DNA of 64,000 nucleotides from Minisyncoccota bacterium (GTDB lineage: Bacteria > Patescibacteriota > Minisyncoccia > Moranbacterales > UBA2206), in contig JARLIA010000005.1 in NCBI GenBank assembly GCA_031291955.1, positions 9,214 through 73,213 on the forward strand. The letters run 5' to 3'. The position numbers and the translations under genes were made by a program. This document shows positions 2,742 through 57,736 of this stretch, in pieces (the stretch's first letter is position 1; each line of letters opens with the position of its first letter). The notes under the pieces were generated by a model. It made no database searches. It was given only the letters and a program-made list of their open reading frames with translations, and was not told the origin of the DNA.

Positions 2742-3938
2742 ATGTACAGAAAAACGAACGCGCGGGGCTCGCGCGGAGGCGAAGGCCGAAGAAAAGCCCC
2801 AACGAAAAGCCGTTCCGGCCGGCGAGGATTCTCCGGGGAAAACATCAACATTAATCGCTTCATCCGAAAAGCCGAAGAGACGAAACCAACGGAGGCCTAT
2901 AAACAGCGCTACGCCTTTTCCGATTTTGCTATCGGGGAAGCCTTGAAACGCGTTATCGCCAATCGCGGTTTTTCTGTCCCAACGCCCATCCAAGACCGGG
3001 CTATTCCGGCTATTGTGGCCGGGCACGATGTTATCGGGCTGGCTGACACTGGCACTGGAAAAACGGCCGCCTTTCTCATTCCAATGCTCCACAAGATTCT
3101 CACCGACCCGCAACAGAAAGTGTTGATCGTGGTGCCGACCCGGGAACTGGCTATTCAGATCCAGGAAGAATTCATAGCACTCGCCCGAACACTCCGGATT
3201 TTTTCCGTGGTCGTGGTGGGCGGCGCCAACATTCAAAGACAAATTTCCCAATTGCGCGCTCGCCATAATATGGTGATCGGCACGCCAGGGAGATTGAAAG
3301 ATCTGATCGAGCGGCGCGCGCTCAATCTCTCCGGTTTCAATAACGTCGTTTTGGACGAAGCGGACCGGATGCTGGACATGGGATTCTTGCCGGATGTGCG
3401 TTTGCTTCTTTCGCTCGTATCTCAAAAAAGACAGACCATGCTTTTCTCGGCCACTTTTTCCCAGGAACTTGAAAAATTAGTCAATCAGTTTTTGAAGAGT
3501 CCCGAAAGAATTTCCATCAAGACCGGCGACACTGCCGCTCAGGTGGATCAGGATATTGTCCGCATCGGCGCGGGCGACAAAGTGGAGGTACTTCACGATC
3601 TTTTGAATCAGGCGAATTTTGAAAAAGTTTTGGTTTTCACCCGCACTAAGTGGGGCGCGGACAAGTTGTCCAAAAGCTTGCATGCCCGGGGATTCAAGAC
3701 CGAATCCATCCACGGGGACAAATCGCAAGGGAAGCGTCAGCGGGCTCTCAAAATGTTCAAAGAAAACGCGGTTGAGATCCTGGTGGCGACCGACGTGGCG
3801 GCTCGGGGTCTGGATATCCCGAACGTCAGTCATGTCATCAACTATGACCTTCCGGCGACATATGAAGATTACGTCCACCGCATCGGCAGAACAGGCCGCG
3901 CCGACCAAAAAGGAGTGGCTTTGACTTTTGTGGAATAG
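2742..3938 (+). CDS. DEAD-box ATP-dependent RNA helicase
   Basis: Has the Q motif PTPIQ, Walker A DTGTGKT, VLDEADRMLDMGF, SAT, and HRIGRTGRA. The N-terminal extension is Arg-rich. Confidence 0.9.
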   Translation: MYRKTNARGSRGGEGRRKAPTKSRSGRRGFSGENININRFIRKAEETKPTEAYKQRYAFSDFAIGEALKRVIANRGFSVPTPIQDRAIPAIVAGHDVIGLADTGTGKTAAFLIPMLHKILTDPQQKVLIVVPTRELAIQIQEEFIALARTLRIFSVVVVGGANIQRQISQLRARHNMVIGTPGRLKDLIERRALNLSGFNNVVLDEADRMLDMGFLPDVRLLLSLVSQKRQTMLFSATFSQELEKLVNQFLKSPERISIKTGDTAAQVDQDIVRIGAGDKVEVLHDLLNQANFEKVLVFTRTKWGADKLSKSLHARGFKTESIHGDKSQGKRQRALKMFKENAVEILVATDVAARGLDIPNVSHVINYDLPATYEDYVHRIGRTGRADQKGVALTFVE

Positions 3939-3976
3939 AAAAACTCATGTACGTAATTAGTTACGTAATTAAAAAA

Positions 3977-4010
3977 GAACGGGCGCGAGCCCGTTCTTTT
4001 TTGTTTTTTT
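3977..4010. terminator. bidirectional intrinsic terminator between the helicase and ABC-F genes
   Basis: Hairpin gaacgggcgcgagcccgttc with a T-run on the plus strand and an A-run upstream that gives a U-run on the minus strand. It is preceded by the tacgtaatta-g-ttacgtaatta element at 3949-3972. Confidence 0.7.
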
Positions 4011-26956: not shown

Positions 26957-27550
26957 ATGGAAACAAACAATAATCCCGTCAAAAATCTCAACGAGCTGAT
27001 TGAAAAAGTGGACGCCATGAAAAAACAGGACAAGCTGGATTTGTCGTCCGATCAGGATTTGACCATTGCCATCATGAACCTGGTGAGTATCGAAGAGCAT
27101 TTTTTCTTTACCGGCGCGAAACTCGGGAAGCCTGAATATTTCGACCTTCTTCAAGAAGCGCGCAAGATGCGCGGAGATTTGCTTCGAAAAATCGTGAAAG
27201 ATCCCGAAGGAGAAGTCTGGTGCATCTCGAAACACTTGCTGGCAGCTTCCATGCGTCTTATGGAAGTGGGCACCAAACAGCAGGGGATGGGCAAGAAGGA
27301 GGAGGCGCGGGAATTTTTCCAAAAAGCCTATGACCTCTATTCTCTTTTCTGGGGAATAAATATGAAAGTGATTTCCACCGATAACGTAAAAAAAATCGAC
27401 GAAGGGGCCATGAATGTTCATGACAAAGAGCCTAAGCCCGCCCGCAACGCTTCGCAAGCGGGCGCTGGCTCGCGTAGCGATGCGGGCGGGGGCTTTATGG
27501 GAAAATTGGGCGAACTGGTCAGGAAAGCGGTGGATTGCTGTATCGAATAG
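26957..27550 (+). CDS. hypothetical protein carrying an in-frame GC-rich palindromic element
   Basis: 197 aa. No family recognised. The C-terminal segment PARNASQAGAGSRSDAGGG is encoded by the element at 27437-27492. Confidence 0.5.
   Translation: METNNNPVKNLNELIEKVDAMKKQDKLDLSSDQDLTIAIMNLVSIEEHFFFTGAKLGKPEYFDLLQEARKMRGDLLRKIVKDPEGEVWCISKHLLAASMRLMEVGTKQQGMGKKEEAREFFQKAYDLYSLFWGINMKVISTDNVKKIDEGAMNVHDKEPKPARNASQAGAGSRSDAGGGFMGKLGELVRKAVDCCIE
27437..27492. repeat. GC-rich palindromic element, copy 1, lying in-frame inside a CDS
   Basis: The arms cccgcccgcaacgcttcgc and gcgtagcgatgcgggcggg are 17 of 19 complementary. The same arms occur at 47815-47893. Confidence 0.6.
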
Positions 27551-39274: not shown

Positions 39275-40978
39275 ATGAAAATCAATAAAGCAAAAAATCA
39301 ATTAATCACCCTCGCTATTATTTTTTTCGGGCTTTTTGGTCTGGCGAGAACGTCCCATGCCGCCGATTTCTACATCGCCCAGACAGCGGCCGGATCGGGA
39401 AATGGAACGTCGTGCGCCAACGCAAAAGCCTATACGTGGAATTGGTCAGGTGTTCAGCCGGGAGATACCATTTGGATTTGTGGTACGATCAATCTCGTTT
39501 GGGGGGAAAATGTGCTTGTCGGAGCGTCCGGTAGTGCAACCACGCATACTCCTGTGGTGCTTGCCTTTTGTGACGCTGGAGACTGCGGGGGAACATATTC
39601 TCCAGGCGTTGTCCAGTCCGTTGGTCAAGCCGATGACATAATGATCGGTTCGGGGATGCACGACATAGTGATCGACGGCAAAAATGTTGGAGTGGTCCAA
39701 GCGACTAACAACGGAAGCGCGATAGATGGATATGCAAATCAGGGTAGTCCCGTCGGGGTTTATGTCTACGGTAGTACCGATCATATCACGGTTCAAAATC
39801 TTACCATCCAAAAAATCTATGTTCATCAGTATCAGACCACTACTAATGATACTGCGCAGAATGGGATGGGGTTAGGAATATGGTTTCAAGGCACGACAAA
39901 TGCTAATGTCAACAATTGCACTATATCTGACGCAGCTACTGGCATTGTGCTAGGAAGTGGTACAAGCCTGGTTAATGTATATGATAATACTATAAAACAT
40001 TGCTGCATGGGTATATCTGGAGGTTCTGGCGCAGACGATCAGACCATGGACGCTATCGACGTATATGACAACGACATAGAAATGGGCGCGAATTGGATGA
40101 GTCTCGATGGCAATGATTGCCATGCGAACGGAATATATCTTTATAGCGATGGACACCCCAATCTGACATCATCTACTTTGACCAACGCGCAATTTTATAA
40201 TAACTATATCCATGGGCCGTTTGCATATTGGACAAACTTTCCATCGGGAAGCGTCTATGGATGCACAGGGTTTTTCCACTATGATTATGGAGCTGGTTCC
40301 GGAAATATTTTTTTTAATAATCTAGTGGTGGCTGGTCCTTATATTAATACTTCAGCCTCGCCAAATCCATCTAATGGAGCGGTGTCTTGGGCAGACCTTG
40401 AGACGTTGCCAAAGATGTGGAACAACACAGTAATTGGACCTTGGCCGGGAAGTTGGTGTTTTGCGGGTGGAACAGAGGCAGGAGGAGTCAGTCAATCGAG
40501 TGATCCGGATATTAGAAACAATGTGTGTGTTAATGTTGCTGACGGTACCTATGACGGCTTTTACAAATCGCAGGCTGATTACAATGACGAGAACTCGTTT
40601 TACGCTGCTGACATACAGGGAACCGGGTATTCCTTGGCAAACTGGAAGACTGCGTTGGGTGATTCCTGCACCGGCACACCACCGAATGCAACTCCCGCAA
40701 ACAGAGAATGCAACAGCATTGCAACTGCCCCGGCACTCTCTTTGAGTTATGTTCCAACGGGAGCGCCACTTGTTCAGGCGGGAGGAAATCTGTCGTCGTA
40801 TTGTGCCACTTACCCGGCTCTTTGTTATGACAAGCCACTAACAGTTGGCGCGGGCTCGGGCGCTACAGCCGGTGCCGCCCGGCCTAGCTCCGGCGCCTGG
40901 GACATTGGCGCCTACCAATACCAATCCGGATCCGGCACCACTGTTCCCAACGGACCGACGGGACTGACAGTAATGTGA
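39275..40978 (+). CDS. secreted right-handed beta-helix (pectin-lyase-fold-like) protein ending in ...VPNGPTGLTVM
   Basis: Signal peptide. Repeated N/G/T-rich coil motifs typical of a parallel beta-helix. The C-terminal motif is the same as in the previous gene. Confidence 0.65.
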   Translation: MKINKAKNQLITLAIIFFGLFGLARTSHAADFYIAQTAAGSGNGTSCANAKAYTWNWSGVQPGDTIWICGTINLVWGENVLVGASGSATTHTPVVLAFCDAGDCGGTYSPGVVQSVGQADDIMIGSGMHDIVIDGKNVGVVQATNNGSAIDGYANQGSPVGVYVYGSTDHITVQNLTIQKIYVHQYQTTTNDTAQNGMGLGIWFQGTTNANVNNCTISDAATGIVLGSGTSLVNVYDNTIKHCCMGISGGSGADDQTMDAIDVYDNDIEMGANWMSLDGNDCHANGIYLYSDGHPNLTSSTLTNAQFYNNYIHGPFAYWTNFPSGSVYGCTGFFHYDYGAGSGNIFFNNLVVAGPYINTSASPNPSNGAVSWADLETLPKMWNNTVIGPWPGSWCFAGGTEAGGVSQSSDPDIRNNVCVNVADGTYDGFYKSQADYNDENSFYAADIQGTGYSLANWKTALGDSCTGTPPNATPANRECNSIATAPALSLSYVPTGAPLVQAGGNLSSYCATYPALCYDKPLTVGAGSGATAGAARPSSGAWDIGAYQYQSGSGTTVPNGPTGLTVM

Positions 40979-47278: not shown

Positions 47279-48211
47279 ATGCTTCCTTCGAGATGGGACT
47301 ATTCTTTTATGAGTAAAAGTAAGCTTTTTATTGTATGTTCTGTTTTGCTTGTCATTTTAGTCGGGGTTGTTTTCTGTTTTTCCAATTCTTACTCCAAGGT
47401 GATTTTTCCGGCCACGAAAAATATTTCTCAAAATGTCGAACAGCCGGCAGTGTCGAAAGCGGTCGAAAATATTACTAAGCGGGCTGATTTGAAAAATAAT
47501 AATCAAGGTAATGAAAATAACAGTCCAGTCGGGAAAGCTGATGTCGCCGTCAACAATTTTCCGGCGGAGATAAAAATCAACGTGCCCTTCACTTCTCAAG
47601 CGCCACTCGGTGTTTGGGATCAATATCACGAAGAGGCTTGCGAAGAGACAACCCTAGTCATGCTGGAATATTATTTGAAGCATAAACCGCTCACACCCAA
47701 AATTGCCGAGGATCAGATCCAAAAGATGATTGCGTTTGAAATAAAAAATTACGGCGATTACAAAGACACGAATGCCGAACAAACGGTTAATTTATTCAAC
47801 GCTTTTTATGGTCCGTTGCCAGCCCGCAACGCTTCGCCAGCCCGCGTGACTCGCGTCGGCGTGTCTGGCGGGCGTAGCGATGCGGGCGGGCCGAGTGGAA
47901 AAAAGTTGGCGGTGATTTATAATTTTTCCAAACAAGAGATCAAGAACTGGCTGGCCAAGGGCAATCCAGTCATCGTGCCGGCGGCCGGCCGGGAACTTGC
48001 CAATCCATATTTCACGCCGCCCGGCCCGCTTTATCATAACTTGGTTCTTATCGGTTATGACGGCGATAAAATCATTACCAATGATCCAGGCACCAAGCAC
48101 GGTGCCGGATATACATACGACATCGGAGCTTTATATAATGCTATTCATGATTTTCCCGGAAAACCGGAAGATATCGACCAGGGGAGAAAAGCCATGATTG
48201 TGGTGGAATAA
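47279..48211 (+). CDS. C39-like (BtrH/peptidase_C39_2) cysteine-peptidase-domain protein carrying an in-frame GC-rich palindromic element
   Basis: VPFTSQAPLGVWDQYHEEACEETTLVM...HNLVLIGYDGDKIITNDPG. The segment LPARNASPARVTRVGVSGGRSDAGGPSG is encoded by the element. Confidence 0.6.
   Translation: MLPSRWDYSFMSKSKLFIVCSVLLVILVGVVFCFSNSYSKVIFPATKNISQNVEQPAVSKAVENITKRADLKNNNQGNENNSPVGKADVAVNNFPAEIKINVPFTSQAPLGVWDQYHEEACEETTLVMLEYYLKHKPLTPKIAEDQIQKMIAFEIKNYGDYKDTNAEQTVNLFNAFYGPLPARNASPARVTRVGVSGGRSDAGGPSGKKLAVIYNFSKQEIKNWLAKGNPVIVPAAGRELANPYFTPPGPLYHNLVLIGYDGDKIITNDPGTKHGAGYTYDIGALYNAIHDFPGKPEDIDQGRKAMIVVE
47815..47893. repeat. GC-rich palindromic element, copy 2 (longer interior), in-frame in a CDS
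   Basis: Same arms as copy 1 (cccgcaacgcttcgc ... gcgtagcgatgcgggcggg). The local GC content is far above the surrounding sequence. Confidence 0.6.
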
Positions 48212-48288: not shown

Positions 48289-51200
48289 ATGACAAAAATA
48301 AAAAACGGAATCTTGCCAAAGTTGTTCATAAAAACATTTGTTTTCAGTGTGTTTGGCGCACTGACTTTTTTTAGTGGTTCGTCTTTTGCGAATGCGGGAT
48401 CGGTGCCTGGAGCAGTTATGGACCACATGACCGTCCGCTACAACAATTCTCCGACCGTTAGTCTTAACTCCGGCGACACCAAGACCATTTCCATCAATGC
48501 CGATGATTCTTCCGGCAACACATTTATTTCATACACTGGCGACCAATCCATCACTCTTTCCGGCGCTTCCGCTACTGAGAGTAATCATCCGACCTGCACG
48601 GACAAAGACGGCAACCCAGTTGCTTTCGGCACCGCCATGACGCTCAACTTTGTGAACGGCGTGGCTACTTGCGACATGACCCTCTATAAGGCCGAGATGG
48701 CCCATATTAATGCTACCGACGGGACTTACAGTTCCAGCGGCGACAGCTCCTACGGACTGGATGCGACGATAAGCAGTATGGATCATCTGACGGTCCGCTA
48801 TGGCAATTCTTCGTCTATAACGGGTGATATGTGGACGACTAATCTTGATGACAAAACGGTCTCCAAAGTAACTCCGAACGGAACAGCTACTACCTACGAC
48901 GGGACAGGAAGCTATCCCAGTAGTATTGCTTTTGACGGAACCAATATGTGGGTAGCTAATGCTTTTGGCAATTCTGTGACTGAAATTGCTCCGGACGGAA
49001 CCATGGCCACCTATGCCGGTACAGGCAGAGGGCCTAATGGTATTGCTTTTGACGGGACGAATATGTGGACAGCTAATGATAATAATTCAGTCACTAAAAT
49101 TGCTCCGGACGGAACCATGACCACCTATACTGGGACGGGAGGAGAGCCTTTTGGTATCGCTTTTGACGGGACGAACATGTGGACATCTAATGATGACAGT
49201 TCGGTCACTAAGGTCGCCCCGGACGGAACCATGACCACCTATGACGGTACCGGGGTTGATCCTTATGTCATTGCTTTTGACGGGACCAACATGTGGACGG
49301 CTAATTACAGCGACAATTCCGTTACTAAGGTCGCCCCGGACGGAACCATGACCACCTACACCGGGACAGGGAGTAATCCTGGTGGCATTGCTTTTGACGG
49401 AACCAACATGTGGACAGCTAATTCTAGCGACAATTCTGTTACCGAGATTGCTCCGGATGGAACCATGACTACCTACACCGGGACAGGGAATAATCCGGTT
49501 AGTATCGCTTTTGACGGGACCAGTATGTGGACAGCCAACATGGGCGACAATTCTGTCACCAAGGTTGTCCCGGATGGAGCAATGGCTACTTATGACGGGA
49601 CAGGAACGGAGGGAAGTAGGACTTACGCTATCGCTTTTGATGGTTTCACGTTGCCATACGATGGACATGGCGCAAGCCATCAATCTTCAACCGTCACCAT
49701 GAATTCCGGCGACACCAAGACCATTTCCATTAACGCCGATGATTCTTTCGGCAACACATTTACTTCATACTCCGGTGACAAGAGCGTTACTCTTTCCGGC
49801 GCTTCCGCTGCTGGTAGCAATCATCCGACCTGCACCGACAAGGATGGCAATCCTGTTGCTTTCGGCACTGCCATGACTTTGAATTTTGTGAGCGGCGTGG
49901 CTACTTGCGACATGACCCTCTATAAGCCAGAGACGGCGCACATTGACGCTACCGACGGGACTTACAGTTCCAGTGGCGACAGTTCGTATGGGCTGGATGC
50001 GACGGTGGATGGAAGCGAAACCCCGCCAGACACTCCAACTCCGCCAGATACTCCAATCCCTCCAAATTCAGAGGATGTTTGTTCGGAGGGGGAGTCTCAT
50101 CATCTTGACTTGTCTGATAGCGGCAAAAAAAACAGGCTGACTTTCAGTGCGCGCATATCTTCCGGTGATTCGGAAACATCGGACAGCATTTCATCCGGAA
50201 AAGACCAGAATACTCGTCTATACAAAGCGGAAGTGAAAGCAGACGGAAATTCGGAAATTTGCGGATCATTCACGGTGAATAAAATCAATAATCTGCCTGC
50301 CAGAATAAAATTGCCCAAGGAATATTCCCAGTGCAGTGTTTATCGTTATCTCGATATTCAATCAAAAAATGATTTTGACAACAGTGATGTCGACAAGGCC
50401 ACGCTTTGGTTCCGCATCAATAGTAAATGGGAATTAGACAATAATATAGCCAACCCAGTGCTTGTTCAAAGCGATGCTCATGACAACAAAATACTGAATT
50501 TCAAAAAAGACAAGAAATATTCAAATGGTTATATCTACAAAGCTGACTCGTCCAAGCTTTTTGGTCATTGGACGATCTTAGGTTGTCCTGCTTCGAAGAA
50601 AATTATTCCTCCGGTTGTTACGCCGGCCAAACTGGAAAACCCGCCAACAACTCATTTCAACCGCGACAATTCGTCCGTTCCGGTTGTGACCAGCGGTGTC
50701 CTGCCGGAAAGTTCAAATACTCCCGAAAAGGCGTTGGAAAAAACAACATCAACTCCCGCGCCGGACAGAGGATCTATCCTTGGCGTCTGGGCGTCCAATT
50801 TGGTCTCTAAAAATTTCCCTGCAGTCAAATCTATCCCGGCCGCTTTCATGCTGATAAGTTTCATCCAGTTTTTGGCGCTTCTCAATAATGCCAAAGATCT
50901 GCCGGTCATGATGCGTCAATCTTTTCCTTGGATTTTCGGCATCATCGGCAAGAGAAAGAAGGAACGGATGGATTGGGGGATTGTCTACGATGTTGACACC
51001 GGAAAACCTCTCTCGCTGTCGACTGTGCGGATCGTGGATGAGAAGAGCGGTCGCGTCAAAGAAACTAAGGTGACGGACAAATACGGAGCCTACTATTTCC
51101 TGGTTCCCGCGGGCGACTACCATCTTGATCTGGAAAAGAAAGCCTACGCGCCGTTCCAGATTGCAAGCCTTTCAGCGATTCCCGCGTTTTATTCGCCAGT

Positions 51201-51705
51201 CTTCAATTACGCGCCTTTCTCATTTCAGGAAGATGAAAAGGTGGATTTCTTTCTCTCAATGCGGAAAGACAAGCCGTCGTGGACAAATTTCCTGAATCGA
51301 TCCTGGCTGACTGGCTTTTTCAGGCTAATCTTCTGGCTTGGCTTCTTCCTGGACATCTTCATTACCATTATCGCGCCCACGCCGCTCAATATTCTTCTGC
51401 TGCTTGTCTATATCTATCTAGGTTTCCTCCGGAACATGTTCTTGGATGGCCTGAAATGGGGACGCGTTATCAACAACGACGGGACTAGCCAGCCTTTTTC
51501 CACTATCAAGCTGATGAAGAACGGCGAATTGGTCACCCGAGCCGTTTCTGACGAGAAGGGTCGTTATTTCCTGGTGGCCAATCCCGGCAATTACACTTTG
51601 GAAATCACCACTCCGACCAGCACCAGCGGTCAAGTGCTCTCCGGCAGAAGAAGCGTCTCGCTGAGGCGAAGAGCTTCAATTAAGGAAATCGTGATAGTGA
51701 AGTGA
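48289..51705 (+). CDS. giant secreted/membrane protein: duplicated Ig-like module, 9-bladed NHL/YVTN-type beta-propeller, PT-rich linker, C-terminal TM segments and carboxypeptidase-regulatory-like domains
   Basis: Nine repeats of NSVTK(I/V)APDGTMTTYTGTG..P.GIAFDGTNMWTAN. A ~110-aa module is duplicated at 48430-48770 and 49690-50010. Linker PPDTPTPPDTPIPP. Confidence 0.8.
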   Translation: MTKIKNGILPKLFIKTFVFSVFGALTFFSGSSFANAGSVPGAVMDHMTVRYNNSPTVSLNSGDTKTISINADDSSGNTFISYTGDQSITLSGASATESNHPTCTDKDGNPVAFGTAMTLNFVNGVATCDMTLYKAEMAHINATDGTYSSSGDSSYGLDATISSMDHLTVRYGNSSSITGDMWTTNLDDKTVSKVTPNGTATTYDGTGSYPSSIAFDGTNMWVANAFGNSVTEIAPDGTMATYAGTGRGPNGIAFDGTNMWTANDNNSVTKIAPDGTMTTYTGTGGEPFGIAFDGTNMWTSNDDSSVTKVAPDGTMTTYDGTGVDPYVIAFDGTNMWTANYSDNSVTKVAPDGTMTTYTGTGSNPGGIAFDGTNMWTANSSDNSVTEIAPDGTMTTYTGTGNNPVSIAFDGTSMWTANMGDNSVTKVVPDGAMATYDGTGTEGSRTYAIAFDGFTLPYDGHGASHQSSTVTMNSGDTKTISINADDSFGNTFTSYSGDKSVTLSGASAAGSNHPTCTDKDGNPVAFGTAMTLNFVSGVATCDMTLYKPETAHIDATDGTYSSSGDSSYGLDATVDGSETPPDTPTPPDTPIPPNSEDVCSEGESHHLDLSDSGKKNRLTFSARISSGDSETSDSISSGKDQNTRLYKAEVKADGNSEICGSFTVNKINNLPARIKLPKEYSQCSVYRYLDIQSKNDFDNSDVDKATLWFRINSKWELDNNIANPVLVQSDAHDNKILNFKKDKKYSNGYIYKADSSKLFGHWTILGCPASKKIIPPVVTPAKLENPPTTHFNRDNSSVPVVTSGVLPESSNTPEKALEKTTSTPAPDRGSILGVWASNLVSKNFPAVKSIPAAFMLISFIQFLALLNNAKDLPVMMRQSFPWIFGIIGKRKKERMDWGIVYDVDTGKPLSLSTVRIVDEKSGRVKETKVTDKYGAYYFLVPAGDYHLDLEKKAYAPFQIASLSAIPAFYSPVFNYAPFSFQEDEKVDFFLSMRKDKPSWTNFLNRSWLTGFFRLIFWLGFFLDIFITIIAPTPLNILLLLVYIYLGFLRNMFLDGLKWGRVINNDGTSQPFSTIKLMKNGELVTRAVSDEKGRYFLVANPGNYTLEITTPTSTSGQVLSGRRSVSLRRRASIKEIVIVK

Positions 51706-54693: not shown

Positions 54694-54714
54694 GGGTGTA
54701 TATTACTGATTATG

Positions 54715-55104
54715 TGGAGATGGCGAGAATCGAACTCGCGTCCAAAATCATTCTAAAAAAATAATCTACAAGCTTAGCCTGTTTGGTAGTTTTGGCTGAG
54801 GATAGAAACAGACAAAATTACCTCAACCTATTCTCGAATTAATTTTACTAAAATTGCTCGAAAAAGACAATCCCAGCTAGCCCTATATTTGGCACCAGGG
54901 TCTGTCTATGGGGCGTCGACAGTCTGATGGCTAAAGCGATTAAGCTAAAGCGTAAGCGTAAGACGGAGCAAACGCCGAAGCGATCGCGGTCTTAGCTTTG
55001 GTTATAAAGTTTGCATTTATAACGTTTGATAGTGGATTAACGAGACAGCATCTTGCTCGGCTTGCCTATTTTAAAAGTACGATCTGTCGAAACCAAACAT
55101 CCCC
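54715..55104 (-). ncRNA. ssrA: tmRNA (transfer-messenger RNA)
   Basis: The 5' end GGGGAUGUUUGGUUUCGACAGAUCG matches the tmRNA consensus GGGGCUGAUUCUGGAUUCGAC. The 3' tRNA-like domain is GCGAG-UUCGAUU-CUCGC-CAUCUCC-A. The acceptor stem is GGGGAUG/CAUCUCC with a G3-U wobble. The tag ORF resumes at GCA AAC and ends ...SYAYALA-UAA. Confidence 0.8.
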
Positions 55105-55112
55105 TGATTCGG

Positions 55113-55559
55113 TTAGAAATTTTTCAGCGCTCTTCGCATTCCTCGCTCGTCCTCTCTCTTTTTGATTTTCTCGCGCTTGTCGAACTTCTTTTTTCCCTTT
55201 CCTAAGCCAAATTCAAGTTTGATGAGTCGTCTTTTAGTATACATCTGAACCGGCACTAATGTCAAGCCTTCCGTGCGGGCCTGGCCGATGAGTCTTTTGA
55301 GCTCCAACCGGCGGACTAGGAGTTTTCGCGGCCGGGCCGGATCGTAGCTAGGAACTTTCCCGGCGTGTTTATAAAGTGGGATATGGGCATTGGTTAGATA
55401 CAATTCGTTACCATGGATTGTAACAAAAGCTTCTTTCAAGCTCACATGCCCGGCTTTGACTGATTTGACCTCGTGTCCAAGAAGCGCCAAACCGGCCTCG
55501 TATTTCTCGAGGATCTCATAGTCGAAATGGGCGCGTTTATTAATGGCGAGAGTTGGCAT
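55113..55559 (-). CDS. smpB: SsrA-binding protein SmpB
   Basis: MPTLAINKRAHFDYEILEKYEAGLALLGHEVKSVK.... Its stop lies 8 nt upstream of the tmRNA 5' end. Confidence 0.9.
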   Translation of the reverse strand: MPTLAINKRAHFDYEILEKYEAGLALLGHEVKSVKAGHVSLKEAFVTIHGNELYLTNAHIPLYKHAGKVPSYDPARPRKLLVRRLELKRLIGQARTEGLTLVPVQMYTKRRLIKLEFGLGKGKKKFDKREKIKKREDERGMRRALKNF

Positions 55560-57226: not shown

Positions 57227-57736
57227 CTAGAATGGTACGTCTTCAATTCTCACTTCTTCCTCTTCGTCCAAATCGATGGTCGGCAATTGTTCGGCCGGGA
57301 CTTCCGGGGCGGGAGCGGCTTGGGGTCTGGCCGGTGCCGGATTTTGCGGAGTGTTGTAATTATTTCCAGCCGGAGCGAAGTTTCCCGCGCCTGATTCATA
57401 GGCGCTTCGGGGCTTGGCGCCGAGTTGCATATTTTCGACCACGATATCCGTCCGGTAGCGGTCGACGCCGCTCTTGTCGGAGTATTTAGTGGTTTGGAGA
57501 CGACCCTCAAAATAGGCTTCCTGGCCCTTGATCAGATATTGGCCGGCGATTTCGCCCAGTCTTCCCCAGAGAACCAAGTTGTGGAATTCGGTCTTCTCCT
57601 GCTTCTGTCCATTTTTATCTTTCCAGGTGTGACTGGTGGCGAGAGATACCGAGGCGACGGTCTGGCCGGAGGGCGTAGTCCGCACTTCCGGATCGCGCGT
57701 CAGCCGTCCGACGAGCATGACTTTGTTGACATTCAT
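57227..57736 (-). CDS. ssb: single-stranded DNA-binding protein
   Basis: OB fold MNVNKVMLVGRLTRDPEVR...LWGRLGE, a P/Q/A-rich linker, and the acidic tail ending DVPF. Confidence 0.9.
   Translation of the reverse strand: MNVNKVMLVGRLTRDPEVRTTPSGQTVASVSLATSHTWKDKNGQKQEKTEFHNLVLWGRLGEIAGQYLIKGQEAYFEGRLQTTKYSDKSGVDRYRTDIVVENMQLGAKPRSAYESGAGNFAPAGNNYNTPQNPAPARPQAAPAPEVPAEQLPTIDLDEEEEVRIEDVPF

What the first reader, a model, noticed from the sequence alone, without database searches (positions are those of the whole stretch)
27437..27492. GC-rich palindromic element inserted in-frame into two unrelated protein-coding genes
Seen in the sequence: about 55 bp (27437-27492, inside the 26957-27550 gene) and about 79 bp (47815-47893, inside the C39-like peptidase gene) share the arms cccgc(c)cgcaacgcttcgc and gcgtagcgatgcgggcggg. 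The two arms are mutually complementary at 17 of 19 positions, so each copy can form a long GC hairpin. Copy 2 has about 20 bp of extra interior sequence. Both copies are far more GC-rich than the roughly 45% GC surroundings. Both are read in-frame and add an Ala/Arg/Gly/Ser-rich loop to the host protein (PARNASQAGAGSRSDAGGG in copy 1, PARNASPARVTRVGVSGGRSDAGGPSG in copy 2).

From established knowledge, this behaviour is that of Rickettsia palindromic elements, which colonise ORFs in-frame. Inference: this is a small selfish or structural repeat family, apparently not described for this lineage.
Basis: partly seen in the sequence, partly recalled or inferred. Interest (0 to 1): 0.6.

Follow-up and report, generated by a model that had tools for sequence, protein, structure and literature searches.

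The report
Mobile GC-rich hairpin inside CPR genes
Two proteins of this candidate-phyla-radiation bacterium each carry an in-frame copy of a short GC-rich palindrome from a widespread repeat family; elsewhere that family sits beside a tiny GIY-YIG nuclease gene at tRNA and tmRNA genes, which points to an undescribed kind of small mobile DNA.

Summary
Copy 1 (27437-27490, 54 nt) and copy 2 (47819-47890, 72 nt) share 19-nt arms that are complementary at 17 of 19 positions. Both are about 77% GC in 41-46% GC DNA and fold at -44 and -54 kcal/mol. Both are precise in-frame insertions: 17 of 18 aligned orthologues of the C39-like peptidase lack the 24 residues, and a syntenic relative of the other host (93% identical protein) lacks exactly the 54 nt, with no target duplication.

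The element belongs to a family with a near-invariant 52-nt consensus. I collected 155 distinct copies from many CPR lineages. About 35% lie in long reading frames (all six frames used), and I found no clear case of a copy breaking a gene's frame.

The unexpected result is that 28% of copies lie within 150 nt of an 81-residue GIY-YIG nuclease gene, against 3% of random positions. All seven GIY-YIG homologues picked without regard to the hairpin carry one too. These sit either in a duplicated tRNA 5' fragment or directly before tmRNA.

I infer, but have not shown, that the nuclease cassette is the source or mobiliser. I found no published description.

The parts
27437..27490 (+). Copy 1: a 54-nt GC-rich imperfect palindrome inserted in frame. 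It encodes PARNASQAGAGSRSDAGG. It belongs to the '54-nt / 48-nt core' subfamily.
   Evidence: Sequence. Profile match E=9e-14. The empty-site relative L240 lacks exactly these 54 nt. About ten other copies in other reading frames elsewhere have the same 54-nt PARNAS..SRSDAGG layout.
27437..27455 (+). Left arm of copy 1 (CCCGCCCGCAACGCTTCGC).
27472..27490 (+). Right arm of copy 1 (GCGTAGCGATGCGGGCGGG). It pairs with the left arm at 17 of 19 positions; the two non-pairs are A.A and T.T.
47819..47890 (+). Copy 2: a 72-nt 'long form' of the same element inserted in frame. It encodes PARNASPARVTRVGVSGGRSDAGG.
   Evidence: Sequence. Profile match E=1e-7. 17 of 18 orthologues lack the 24 residues. 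The one orthologue that has it (L001) is 97% identical over the insert and 77-78% over the flanks.
47838..47871 (+). Inner hairpin of copy 2 (CAGCCCGCGTGACTCGCGTCGGCGTGTCTGGCGGG). It replaces the short central stem-loop of the standard form.
   Evidence: Fold. In about 11 other distinct copies of the long subfamily the inner segment differs, and in some it is inverted relative to the arms.
26957..27550 (+). Host gene 1: a 197-aa protein, very conserved in CPR, with no Pfam family. The element sits in the only variable linker, before the C-terminal GFMGKLGELVRKAxDCCIE.
47279..48211 (+). Host gene 2: a C39-like peptidase (PF13529). The element sits in a loop between helix 166-177 and strand 210-214.
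   Evidence: In the AlphaFold2 model residues 185-203 have pLDDT below 50 while the flanking blocks score 82-95.
55105..55112 (-). Unoccupied site for comparison. Here only 8 nt separate the smpB stop (smpB 55113-55559) from the 5' GGGG of tmRNA (54712-55104). In many relatives a GIY-YIG gene plus this hairpin lie at this junction.
   Evidence: compared.

Best explanation
The two segments are copies of a short, non-coding, GC-rich imperfect palindrome. Its consensus is CCCGCCCGCAACGCTTCGCAAGCGAGCTTGCTCGCGTAGCGATGCGGGCGGG (52 nt), with 30-nt, 54-nt and 67-72-nt variants. The family is dispersed through candidate-phyla-radiation (Patescibacteria) genomes.

Shown. Each window copy is a precise insertion without target-site duplication into a permissive loop or linker of a protein. 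Each is translated as an Ala/Arg/Gly/Ser-rich stretch. Presence is patchy among close relatives. I found no clear case of a copy that breaks a gene's frame.

Also shown. The family is tightly linked to an 81-residue stand-alone GIY-YIG nuclease gene, in two layouts. In the first, a duplicated tRNA 5' fragment carries the hairpin in its D-arm, followed by the GIY-YIG gene and then the intact tRNA. In the second, the order is smpB, GIY-YIG, hairpin, tmRNA.

Inferred. The GIY-YIG cassette is a homing-type mobile unit aimed at tRNA and tmRNA genes, and the hairpin is its cis-acting partner. The nuclease probably makes the DNA break, and the hairpin is copied into breaks. Solo copies such as the two here would be satellites, comparable to REP or MITE elements. 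Selection then keeps only copies that are in frame, stop-free and in tolerant loops, after which they drift or are lost precisely.
For: Insertion and in-frame status.

They yielded 155 distinct copies, and among the 56 CPR copies from the genome scan 15 were identical over 52 nt. The CCC and GGG ends were not part of the search patterns yet are present in 145 and 144 of 148 copies.

Coding behaviour: 55 of 155 copies lie in long reading frames and all six frames are used. The sense frame PARNAS... occurs in 21 copies; 20 of those are non-canonical forms of 36-72 nt, as needed because the canonical form has a TAG stop in that frame (the one left at 50 nt is a trimmed profile match). Only one doubtful frame-breaking case was found among the 100 other copies.

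Mobility: the closest relatives of host 1 are empty while more distant ones are filled. The copy-2 insert is 70/72 identical to its orthologue's insert while flanks are 77-78% identical (binomial P=2.5e-6). Nested copies and inverted inner segments occur.

GIY-YIG link: 43 of 155 copies lie within 150 nt of a GIY-YIG ORF, against 2.9% of random positions in the same loci. GIY-YIG is the most recurrent neighbour family (39 loci), and no transposase or recombinase recurs. All 7 GIY-YIG homologues chosen only for contig length carry a family hairpin within about 35 nt, including a tandem array. Copies next to GIY-YIG are closer to the consensus than coding copies (median edit distance 1 versus 5, Fisher P=2e-4). 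The smpB-tmRNA junction is occupied in many genomes and empty in the window. The protein is a bare PF01541 catalytic domain.
Against: No GIY-YIG ORF was detected in this 64-kb window. Whether this genome encodes one elsewhere is unknown.

The hairpin lies on one side of the nuclease gene, upstream or downstream and in either orientation. It does not flank the gene as terminal repeats would, and I found no case of arms separated by a GIY-YIG gene. A classical parent-and-MITE relation is therefore not shown.

No cleavage or mobility has been demonstrated. Co-location could reflect a role of the hairpin in cassette expression, or shared permissive sites.

Loci were retrieved with patterns fixing 22-28 nt, so family homogeneity is overestimated. 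The seven 'independent' GIY-YIG genes all belong to the one subfamily found with a hairpin-linked query. No viral contig carries the element, so the route of spread between lineages is unknown.
Confidence: 0.62

Rival explanations
1. The hairpins spread by a route unrelated to the GIY-YIG nuclease, such as an unidentified transposase, or host replication or repair template switching at hairpins. On this view they sit next to GIY-YIG genes either because they serve that cassette (transcript end, 5' or 3' stabiliser, insulation from the tRNA or tmRNA) or because both accumulate in the few dispensable spots of tiny genomes.
For: The hairpin lies in the 5' leader of GIY-YIG in 17 cases and after its stop codon in 26, which fits untranslated-region hairpins. 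The window has two solo copies and no GIY-YIG ORF. Other, unrelated GC-rich palindromes occupy the same D-arm position in some cassettes (L192, L019, L055), so what recurs there is a hairpin rather than this particular sequence.
Against: Both orientations are about equally frequent next to GIY-YIG, which argues against a strand-specific RNA signal. No U-tract follows the hairpin before tmRNA. No other candidate enzyme recurs within 1.5 kb of 155 copies. The enrichment is about ten-fold and the reciprocal test gave 7 of 7.
Confidence: 0.25
2. The segments are kept because they are useful where they are. They could act as an mRNA structure (pausing, stability, processing site) or as a functional protein loop, acquired repeatedly by selection rather than as selfish DNA.
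For: The copy-2 insert is far more conserved than its host gene (97% versus 77-78%). The copy-1 site holds related inserts in many orthologues.
Against: The same DNA is read in all six frames in unrelated proteins, giving different peptides. The insert is a low-confidence loop in the structure model. At the copy-1 site the peptides drift freely, and the closest relatives lack any insert. No Rfam family matches.
Confidence: 0.08
3. The similarity is chance, ancestral protein sequence, or an assembly or contamination artefact.
For: A nearly invariant 52-nt sequence across very different assemblies could raise suspicion of a technical contaminant.
Against: Shuffles give 0.02 expected matches. Orthologues lack the segment. 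Copies occur in independent NCBI, ENA, JGI and Logan assemblies, in frame, with point variants, length variants and nested forms, and at fixed positions relative to tRNA, tmRNA and GIY-YIG genes.
Confidence: 0.02

Closest known systems
Rickettsia palindromic elements (RPE)
   Same: Both are palindromic repeats that colonise ORFs in frame without destroying the host protein. Both also occur in non-coding DNA and at the tmRNA gene. [quoted passage not shown] Both show patchy presence among orthologues.
   Different: From my own knowledge, RPEs are about 100-150 bp, are confined to Rickettsia, and have no known associated enzyme. The element here is 52-72 nt and about 77% GC, spans many CPR lineages with a near-invariant consensus, and is linked to a GIY-YIG gene. 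I did not test sequence relatedness to RPE consensus sequences.
REP / REPIN elements with RAYT (Y1 tyrosine transposase)
   Same: Both are short GC-rich imperfect palindromes with conserved non-paired bases. Both are dispersed as satellites of a single-gene enzyme partner (PMC3337134 and PMC3733652, listed).
   Different: REPs are extragenic and carry a terminal GTAG or CGTC tag, and their partner is an IS200/IS605-type transposase. Here 35% of copies are in long reading frames and the ends are CCC/GGG. No Y1 transposase recurs nearby, and the partner is a bare GIY-YIG nuclease domain.
Free-standing GIY-YIG homing endonuclease cassettes (for example phage T4 Seg proteins, with SegB in the tRNA gene region), and the GIY-YIG ORFs in non-intron insertions of CPR rRNA genes
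   Same: Both involve a GIY-YIG gene inserted between or inside conserved genes for structured RNAs, with presence/absence polymorphism. GIY-YIG ORFs in CPR rRNA insertions are reported in PMC11270868. The T4 SegB comparison is from my own knowledge.
   Different: Classical enzymes carry a DNA-binding domain, whereas this protein is only the 81-residue catalytic core. As far as I found, no dispersed hairpin satellite and no duplicated tRNA 5' fragment are described for them.
GC clusters of yeast mitochondrial DNA (own knowledge) and the ORF-invading MITEs of Coxiella burnetii (PMC5896051, listed)
   Same: Both are short GC-rich palindromes in AT-richer genomes that can sit in frame inside a protein gene as optional insertions.
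   Different: They occur in a different lineage and have different sequences. Classical MITEs and yeast GC clusters have target-site duplications, and none is seen here. Neither has a GIY-YIG partner.

Membership tests
Rickettsia palindromic elements | Palindromic repeat able to form a long hairpin | tested here: met
   17 of 19 arm positions are complementary. Predicted folds are -44 and -54 kcal/mol.
Rickettsia palindromic elements | In-frame insertion in ORFs whose orthologues lack it | tested here: met
   for the window copies. 55 of 155 family copies lie in long reading frames.
Rickettsia palindromic elements | Sequence homology to an RPE family, size about 100-150 bp, Rickettsia lineage (own knowledge) | tested here: not met
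   The element is 52-72 nt, about 77% GC, and found in CPR bacteria. I made no direct alignment to RPE consensus sequences.
Rickettsia palindromic elements | Tens to hundreds of copies per genome | tested here: inconclusive
   There are 2 copies in this 64 kb.
REP / RAYT | Extragenic location | tested here: not met
   35% of copies lie inside long reading frames.
REP / RAYT | Terminal GTAG or CGTC tetranucleotide | tested here: not met
   The ends are CCC and GGG in 145 and 144 of 148 copies. A GTAG is present only inside the right arm.
REP / RAYT | Associated Y1 (IS200/IS605-type) transposase gene | tested here: not met
   No such family appears among recurrent neighbours within 1.5 kb of 155 copies. 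Only GIY-YIG and tmRNA-region genes recur. Whole genomes were not searched.
MITE | Target-site duplication | tested here: not met
   Comparison of empty and filled sites shows none. No 4- or 5-nt duplication occurs in 148 copies.
MITE | Parent element carrying the same terminal inverted repeats around its gene | tested here: not met
   The whole hairpin lies on one side of the GIY-YIG gene. No arms were found separated by a gene.
Free-standing GIY-YIG homing cassette (applies to the linked gene, not to the window copies) | GIY-YIG catalytic domain | tested here: met
   PF01541, E about 1e-14. The nearest solved structures are UPF0213 proteins 1zg2 and 1ywl.
Free-standing GIY-YIG homing cassette | Presence/absence polymorphism at a conserved site | tested here: met
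   The smpB-tmRNA junction is empty in the window and occupied in many relatives.
Free-standing GIY-YIG homing cassette | Site-specific cleavage of the empty allele, and a DNA-binding domain | not testable with these tools
   The protein is 81 aa and consists of the catalytic core only. Its activity is unknown.

The most novel reading that the evidence does not exclude
The hairpin and the 81-residue GIY-YIG protein together form a minimal two-part mobile system of a kind not yet described. A structure-specific nuclease with no DNA-binding domain would recognise its own GC-rich hairpin or cruciform. It would home into the D-arm-coding DNA of tRNA genes and the 5' edge of tmRNA genes across the candidate phyla radiation. 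It would also scatter solo hairpins that invade protein genes in frame. This would be functionally parallel to REP/RAYT but built on a different nuclease fold.
Probability: 0.4. Interest if true: 0.8.

Novelty: new variant of a known kind. Interest (0 to 1): 0.64.

Why it matters
CPR bacteria have very small genomes and few recognised mobile elements, yet this 52-nt sequence is almost unchanged across many of their lineages and has entered protein-coding genes. If the GIY-YIG link is causal, it gives a concrete and testable mechanism for palindromic repeats that colonise ORFs, something never resolved for the Rickettsia elements. It would also assign a function to the abundant small UPF0213/COG2827-type GIY-YIG proteins.

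There are practical consequences too. These inserts add disordered loops to proteins and create tRNA pseudo-fragments, and both can mislead annotation, alignment and binning of CPR genomes.

Tried and rejected
(1) Chance, ancestral sequence or artefact: rejected.

(2) Known RNA family: only sub-threshold generic hairpin noise in Rfam.

(3) Intron-like or frame-breaking copies that would need removal from the RNA: one doubtful case among 100 non-coding copies.

(4) Target-site duplication: none.

(5) Insertion into the loop of a pre-existing host hairpin: flanks just outside CCC/GGG pair less than shuffled controls (0.30 versus 0.68 consecutive pairs).

(6) Phage carriage: 0 exact matches in 2.9 million viral contigs.

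(7) A transposase or recombinase partner: none recurs nearby.

(8) Hairpin arms flanking a GIY-YIG gene, as an autonomous parent of a MITE would have: not found.

(9) More copies or other family members in the window: none. Other GC-rich stretches (40838-40912, 57281-57348 and others) are ordinary coding sequence.

(10) Covariation analysis of the 52-nt class: too little variation for a formal test, with 20 distinct sequences among 69 copies. Only anecdotal compensatory changes were seen in the central stem, for example GTGAGC/GCTCAC.

(11) High-GC hits of the genome scan (Actinomycetota, Proteobacteria and others) are chance matches without the central consensus.

Full report
1. THE OBSERVATION

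The two segments exist as described. Copy 1 is 27437-27490 (54 nt) and copy 2 is 47819-47890 (72 nt). They share the arms CCCGCCCGCAACGCTTCGC (CCAGCCCGC... in copy 2) and GCGTAGCGATGCGGGCGGG.

- In the 64-kb window these arms occur nowhere else. A dinucleotide-preserving shuffle expects 0.76 and 0.02 matches, and no shuffle reached the observed numbers.
- The arms are complementary at 17 of 19 positions. The two exceptions are an A.A and a T.T opposition.
- GC content is 77-78%, against 41-46% in the flanks.
- Predicted hairpins are -44 and -54 kcal/mol, with z-scores of -3 to -5 on either strand.
- A profile built from family members finds only these two copies in the window.

2. BOTH ARE TRUE IN-FRAME INSERTIONS

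The window comes from a CPR bacterium. Both host proteins are 100% identical to NCBI proteins of a 'Candidatus Pacebacteria' MAG on a 273,958-bp contig.

Host 2 (47279-48211) is a C39-like peptidase (PF13529).
- In an alignment with 18 orthologues, 17 have a gap exactly where the window protein reads ARNASPARVTRVGVSGGRSDAGG. Only P0002 shares the insert.
- An AlphaFold2 model places the insert in a low-confidence loop (residues 185-203, pLDDT below 50) between a helix and a strand of an otherwise confident domain.

Host 1 (26957-27550) is a very conserved CPR protein with no Pfam family.
- The element sits in its only variable linker.
- A syntenic relative, L240 (P0126, 93% identical), shows the empty site: GAACCAAAA|GGCTTTGTA, against GAGCCTAAG[54 nt]GGCTTTATG in the window. 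The insertion is therefore exactly 54 nt with no target-site duplication.
- Outside the linker, the four closest relatives (91-93% identical) are all empty. Orthologues with recognisable ARNAS...SDAGG-type inserts are 75-89% identical and are interleaved with orthologues that have unrelated linkers. This patchiness needs repeated gain at a permissive site, precise loss, or both.

3. A LARGE AND VERY HOMOGENEOUS FAMILY

- The high-GC hits are chance matches.
- The 56 low-GC hits share one consensus: CCCGCCCGCAACGCTTCGCAAGCGAGCTTGCTCGCGTAGCGATGCGGGCGGG. Fifteen copies are identical over all 52 nt.
- They come from MAGs labelled Moran-, Pace-, Parcu-, Sacchari-, Nealson-, Portnoy-, Falkow-, Gribaldo- and Buchananbacteria. 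A few are labelled Bdellovibrionales, Margulisiibacteriota or Gammaproteobacteria.

Viral contigs gave nothing.

After removing duplicates there are 155 distinct copies in 1.26 Mb.
- The terminal CCC and GGG were not in the search patterns yet are present in 145 and 144 of 148 copies. Sequence conservation stops at that boundary.
- Length variants are arms-only forms of about 30 nt, the 52-nt standard form, a 54-nt form to which copy 1 belongs, and a 67-72-nt long form to which copy 2 belongs. In the long form a second hairpin replaces the central stem, sometimes in inverted orientation.
- Nested copies occur, for example L007.

Caveat: retrieval fixed 22-28 nt of the sequence, so homogeneity is overestimated.

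4. BEHAVIOUR IN GENES

Fifty-five of 155 copies (35%) lie in long open frames, against 64% of random positions. The hosts include clearly real genes, such as a glycosyltransferase, a FolC-like ligase and a tRNA-dihydrouridine synthase.

All six frames are used.
- The commonest are the sense frame PARNAS...SRSDAGG (21 copies) and the antisense frame PPASLREQARLRSVAGG (14 copies).
- The canonical sequence has a TAG in the PARNAS frame. Accordingly, 20 of the 21 copies read in that frame are non-canonical forms of 36-72 nt, mostly 54, 51 or 45 nt; the one left at 50 nt (L067) is a trimmed profile match. Copy 1 is such a variant, with 2 extra nt in the centre.

Only one doubtful case was found of a copy separating two long frames on one strand. 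There is therefore no sign of intron-like removal: the copies are translated, and only harmless ones persist.

No Rfam family matches.

5. SIGNS OF RECENT OR CONSTRAINED HISTORY

The copy-2 insert and the one in its orthologue L001 are 70/72 identical, while the 135-nt flanks on either side are 77-78% identical (binomial P=2.5e-6). Divergence resumes at the first base outside the element.

At the copy-1 site, inserts in L241 and L242 are also closer to the window's insert than the flanks are. More distant orthologues, however, show freely drifting peptides.

So copies are either younger than their host genes or are homogenised, and older copies decay.

6. THE UNEXPECTED LINK TO A SMALL GIY-YIG NUCLEASE AT tRNA AND tmRNA GENES

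Forty-three of 155 copies (28%) lie within 150 nt of an ORF of about 81 aa with a GIY-YIG catalytic domain. The domain is PF01541 at E about 1e-14, and the nearest solved structures are the UPF0213 proteins 1zg2 and 1ywl. There is no DNA-binding domain. Only 2.9% of random positions in the same loci are that close to such an ORF.

Twenty-one copies lie within 60 nt of a tRNA or tmRNA gene, against 2% for controls.

GIY-YIG is the most recurrent neighbour family (39 loci). It is followed by SmpB, IF3, L35 and L20, which are the tmRNA neighbourhood. No transposase or recombinase recurs.

Two layouts recur.
- Layout A: a duplicate of the first 14-26 nt of a tRNA gene, with the hairpin inserted in its D-arm. 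This is followed within 10-50 nt by the GIY-YIG start codon, and then within 5-10 nt of the stop codon by the intact tRNA. Examples include Gln and Glu tRNAs and at least three other tRNA sequence types.
- Layout B: smpB, then GIY-YIG, then a short spacer, then the hairpin, whose terminal GGG runs directly into the 5' GGGG of tmRNA.

The hairpin occurs upstream (17 cases) or downstream (26 cases) of the nuclease gene, in both orientations about equally.

The window's own smpB-tmRNA junction is empty, with 8 nt between the genes. No GIY-YIG ORF was detected in the window.

Reciprocal test. Seven GIY-YIG homologues were chosen only because they lie on long or many contigs. All seven carry a hairpin of this family within about 35 nt, in layout A, in layout B, or (L251) with only a hairpin after the stop codon. 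One locus has a tandem array, [tRNA-Gln fragment + hairpin + GIY-YIG] twice, followed by tRNA-Gln. These homologues all belong to the subfamily found with a hairpin-linked query, so the test shows tight coupling within that subfamily, not for all GIY-YIG proteins.

Copies next to GIY-YIG are closer to the consensus than coding copies (median edit distance 1 versus 5, Fisher P=2e-4). Adjacent GIY-YIG genes are about 65% identical in DNA where their hairpins are about 98% identical (with the ascertainment caveat above).

7. MECHANISM

Shown: precise, duplication-free, in-frame insertions of a dispersed palindrome; patchy presence; coupling to a GIY-YIG cassette that is itself present or absent at conserved RNA-gene sites.

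Inferred (confidence about 0.4 for this part): the cassette is a homing-type unit aimed at tRNA and tmRNA genes. Its bare nuclease core acts on, or together with, the hairpin, possibly recognising it as a structure. The conserved A.A and T.T oppositions would suit protein recognition. Solo hairpins would then be satellites copied into breaks elsewhere, and selection leaves only in-frame, stop-free copies in loops.

What does not fit a classical MITE or IS picture: the whole hairpin is on one side of the gene, and there is no target duplication.

The idea that the element targets the loop of a pre-existing host hairpin is rejected, because flanks pair less than chance.

The main rival (about 0.25) is that the hairpin serves the cassette, for example as a transcript-end structure, and spreads by another route. 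The use of both orientations and the absence of a U-tract count against this, but do not exclude it.

8. COMPARISON WITH KNOWN SYSTEMS

- Rickettsia palindromic elements. The behaviour matches: in-frame in ORFs, and also at tmRNA (R. bellii: 526 copies, 53 in genes, 1 in tmRNA; PMC1458961). Size, composition, lineage and the enzyme link differ, so this is an analogue and not a member.
- REP/RAYT. It shares the logic of a short imperfect GC-rich palindrome plus a single-gene partner. It fails three REP criteria: it is not extragenic, it lacks a terminal GTAG or CGTC tag, and no Y1 transposase is associated.
- Free-standing GIY-YIG homing endonucleases. The linked gene resembles these, as well as the GIY-YIG ORFs reported in non-intron insertions of CPR rRNA genes (PMC11270868). 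Those reports mention no dispersed hairpin.

Seven full-text searches found no description of this family or of the hairpin/GIY-YIG/tRNA-fragment layout. That is absence of evidence within one library only.

9. VERDICT

As an ORF-colonising palindrome it is a new example of a known phenomenon. The near-invariant consensus across CPR lineages and the tight coupling to a minimal GIY-YIG nuclease at tRNA and tmRNA genes make it a new variant worth experimental follow-up.

Noticed in passing
L008, L014, L075, L082, L006, L158, L161, L166, L167, L190, L192, L195, L201, L243, L244, L248, L250 (upstream of each GIY-YIG gene): A duplicated 5' fragment of a tRNA gene (14-26 nt) with the hairpin in its D-arm precedes the GIY-YIG gene, and the intact tRNA follows. 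L243 has two such units in tandem. The orientation of the hairpin relative to the fragment differs between loci, for example L082 versus L008.
   Followed up: partly
L192 (downstream of GIY-YIG 3739-3981), L019 (after 6547), L055 (upstream of 1347-1601), L097 (T-arm of the pseudo-tRNA): Other, unrelated GC-rich palindromes (for example TCGCCTCTCCGGCGACCCGCCGATGAGGCGGG and CCGCCAAAAGC...GCATTTTGGCGG) sit at the same kind of position inside tRNA fragments. This suggests several hairpin families with the same habit.
   Followed up: no
L053 3321-3560 and flanks: One GIY-YIG gene not linked to this hairpin is bracketed by an inverted repeat of about 21 nt (GACCCCGCACTAACTTTCGCT / AGCGAAAGTTAGTGCGGGGTT). 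It looks as if the gene sits in the loop of a large palindrome.
   Followed up: no
L006, L019, L037, L079, L109 (labelled Bdellovibrionales); L008 and L244 (Margulisiibacteriota / Saganbacteria); L093 (Gammaproteobacteria): MAGs with non-CPR labels carry the same hairpin and GIY-YIG layout. This reflects either mis-binning or mislabelling, or spread of the cassette beyond CPR.
   Followed up: no
Its function is unknown. The only variable part is the linker where the element sits.
   Followed up: partly
window 54712-55559 (- strand): smpB and tmRNA are separated by only 8 nt here. This is the unoccupied state of the junction that holds GIY-YIG plus the hairpin in many relatives.
   Followed up: yes
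window 40838-40912 and 57281-57348: Other GC-rich stretches that fold well are ordinary coding sequence: a surface-protein C-terminus and the Pro/Ala-rich tail of a likely single-stranded-DNA-binding protein. They are not members of the family.
   Followed up: partly
window 48289-51705: The 1138-aa ORF directly downstream of the peptidase has many tandem '...NSVTKVAPDGTMTTYTGTG..PxGIAFDGTNMWTAN' repeats, like a beta-propeller, plus two near-identical N-terminal modules.
   Followed up: no
L001 98-1405 versus window 47279-48211: The only orthologue sharing the copy-2 insert is fused to an N-terminal VanZ-like domain (435 aa), as are many other family members. The window protein lacks that domain.
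   Followed up: no
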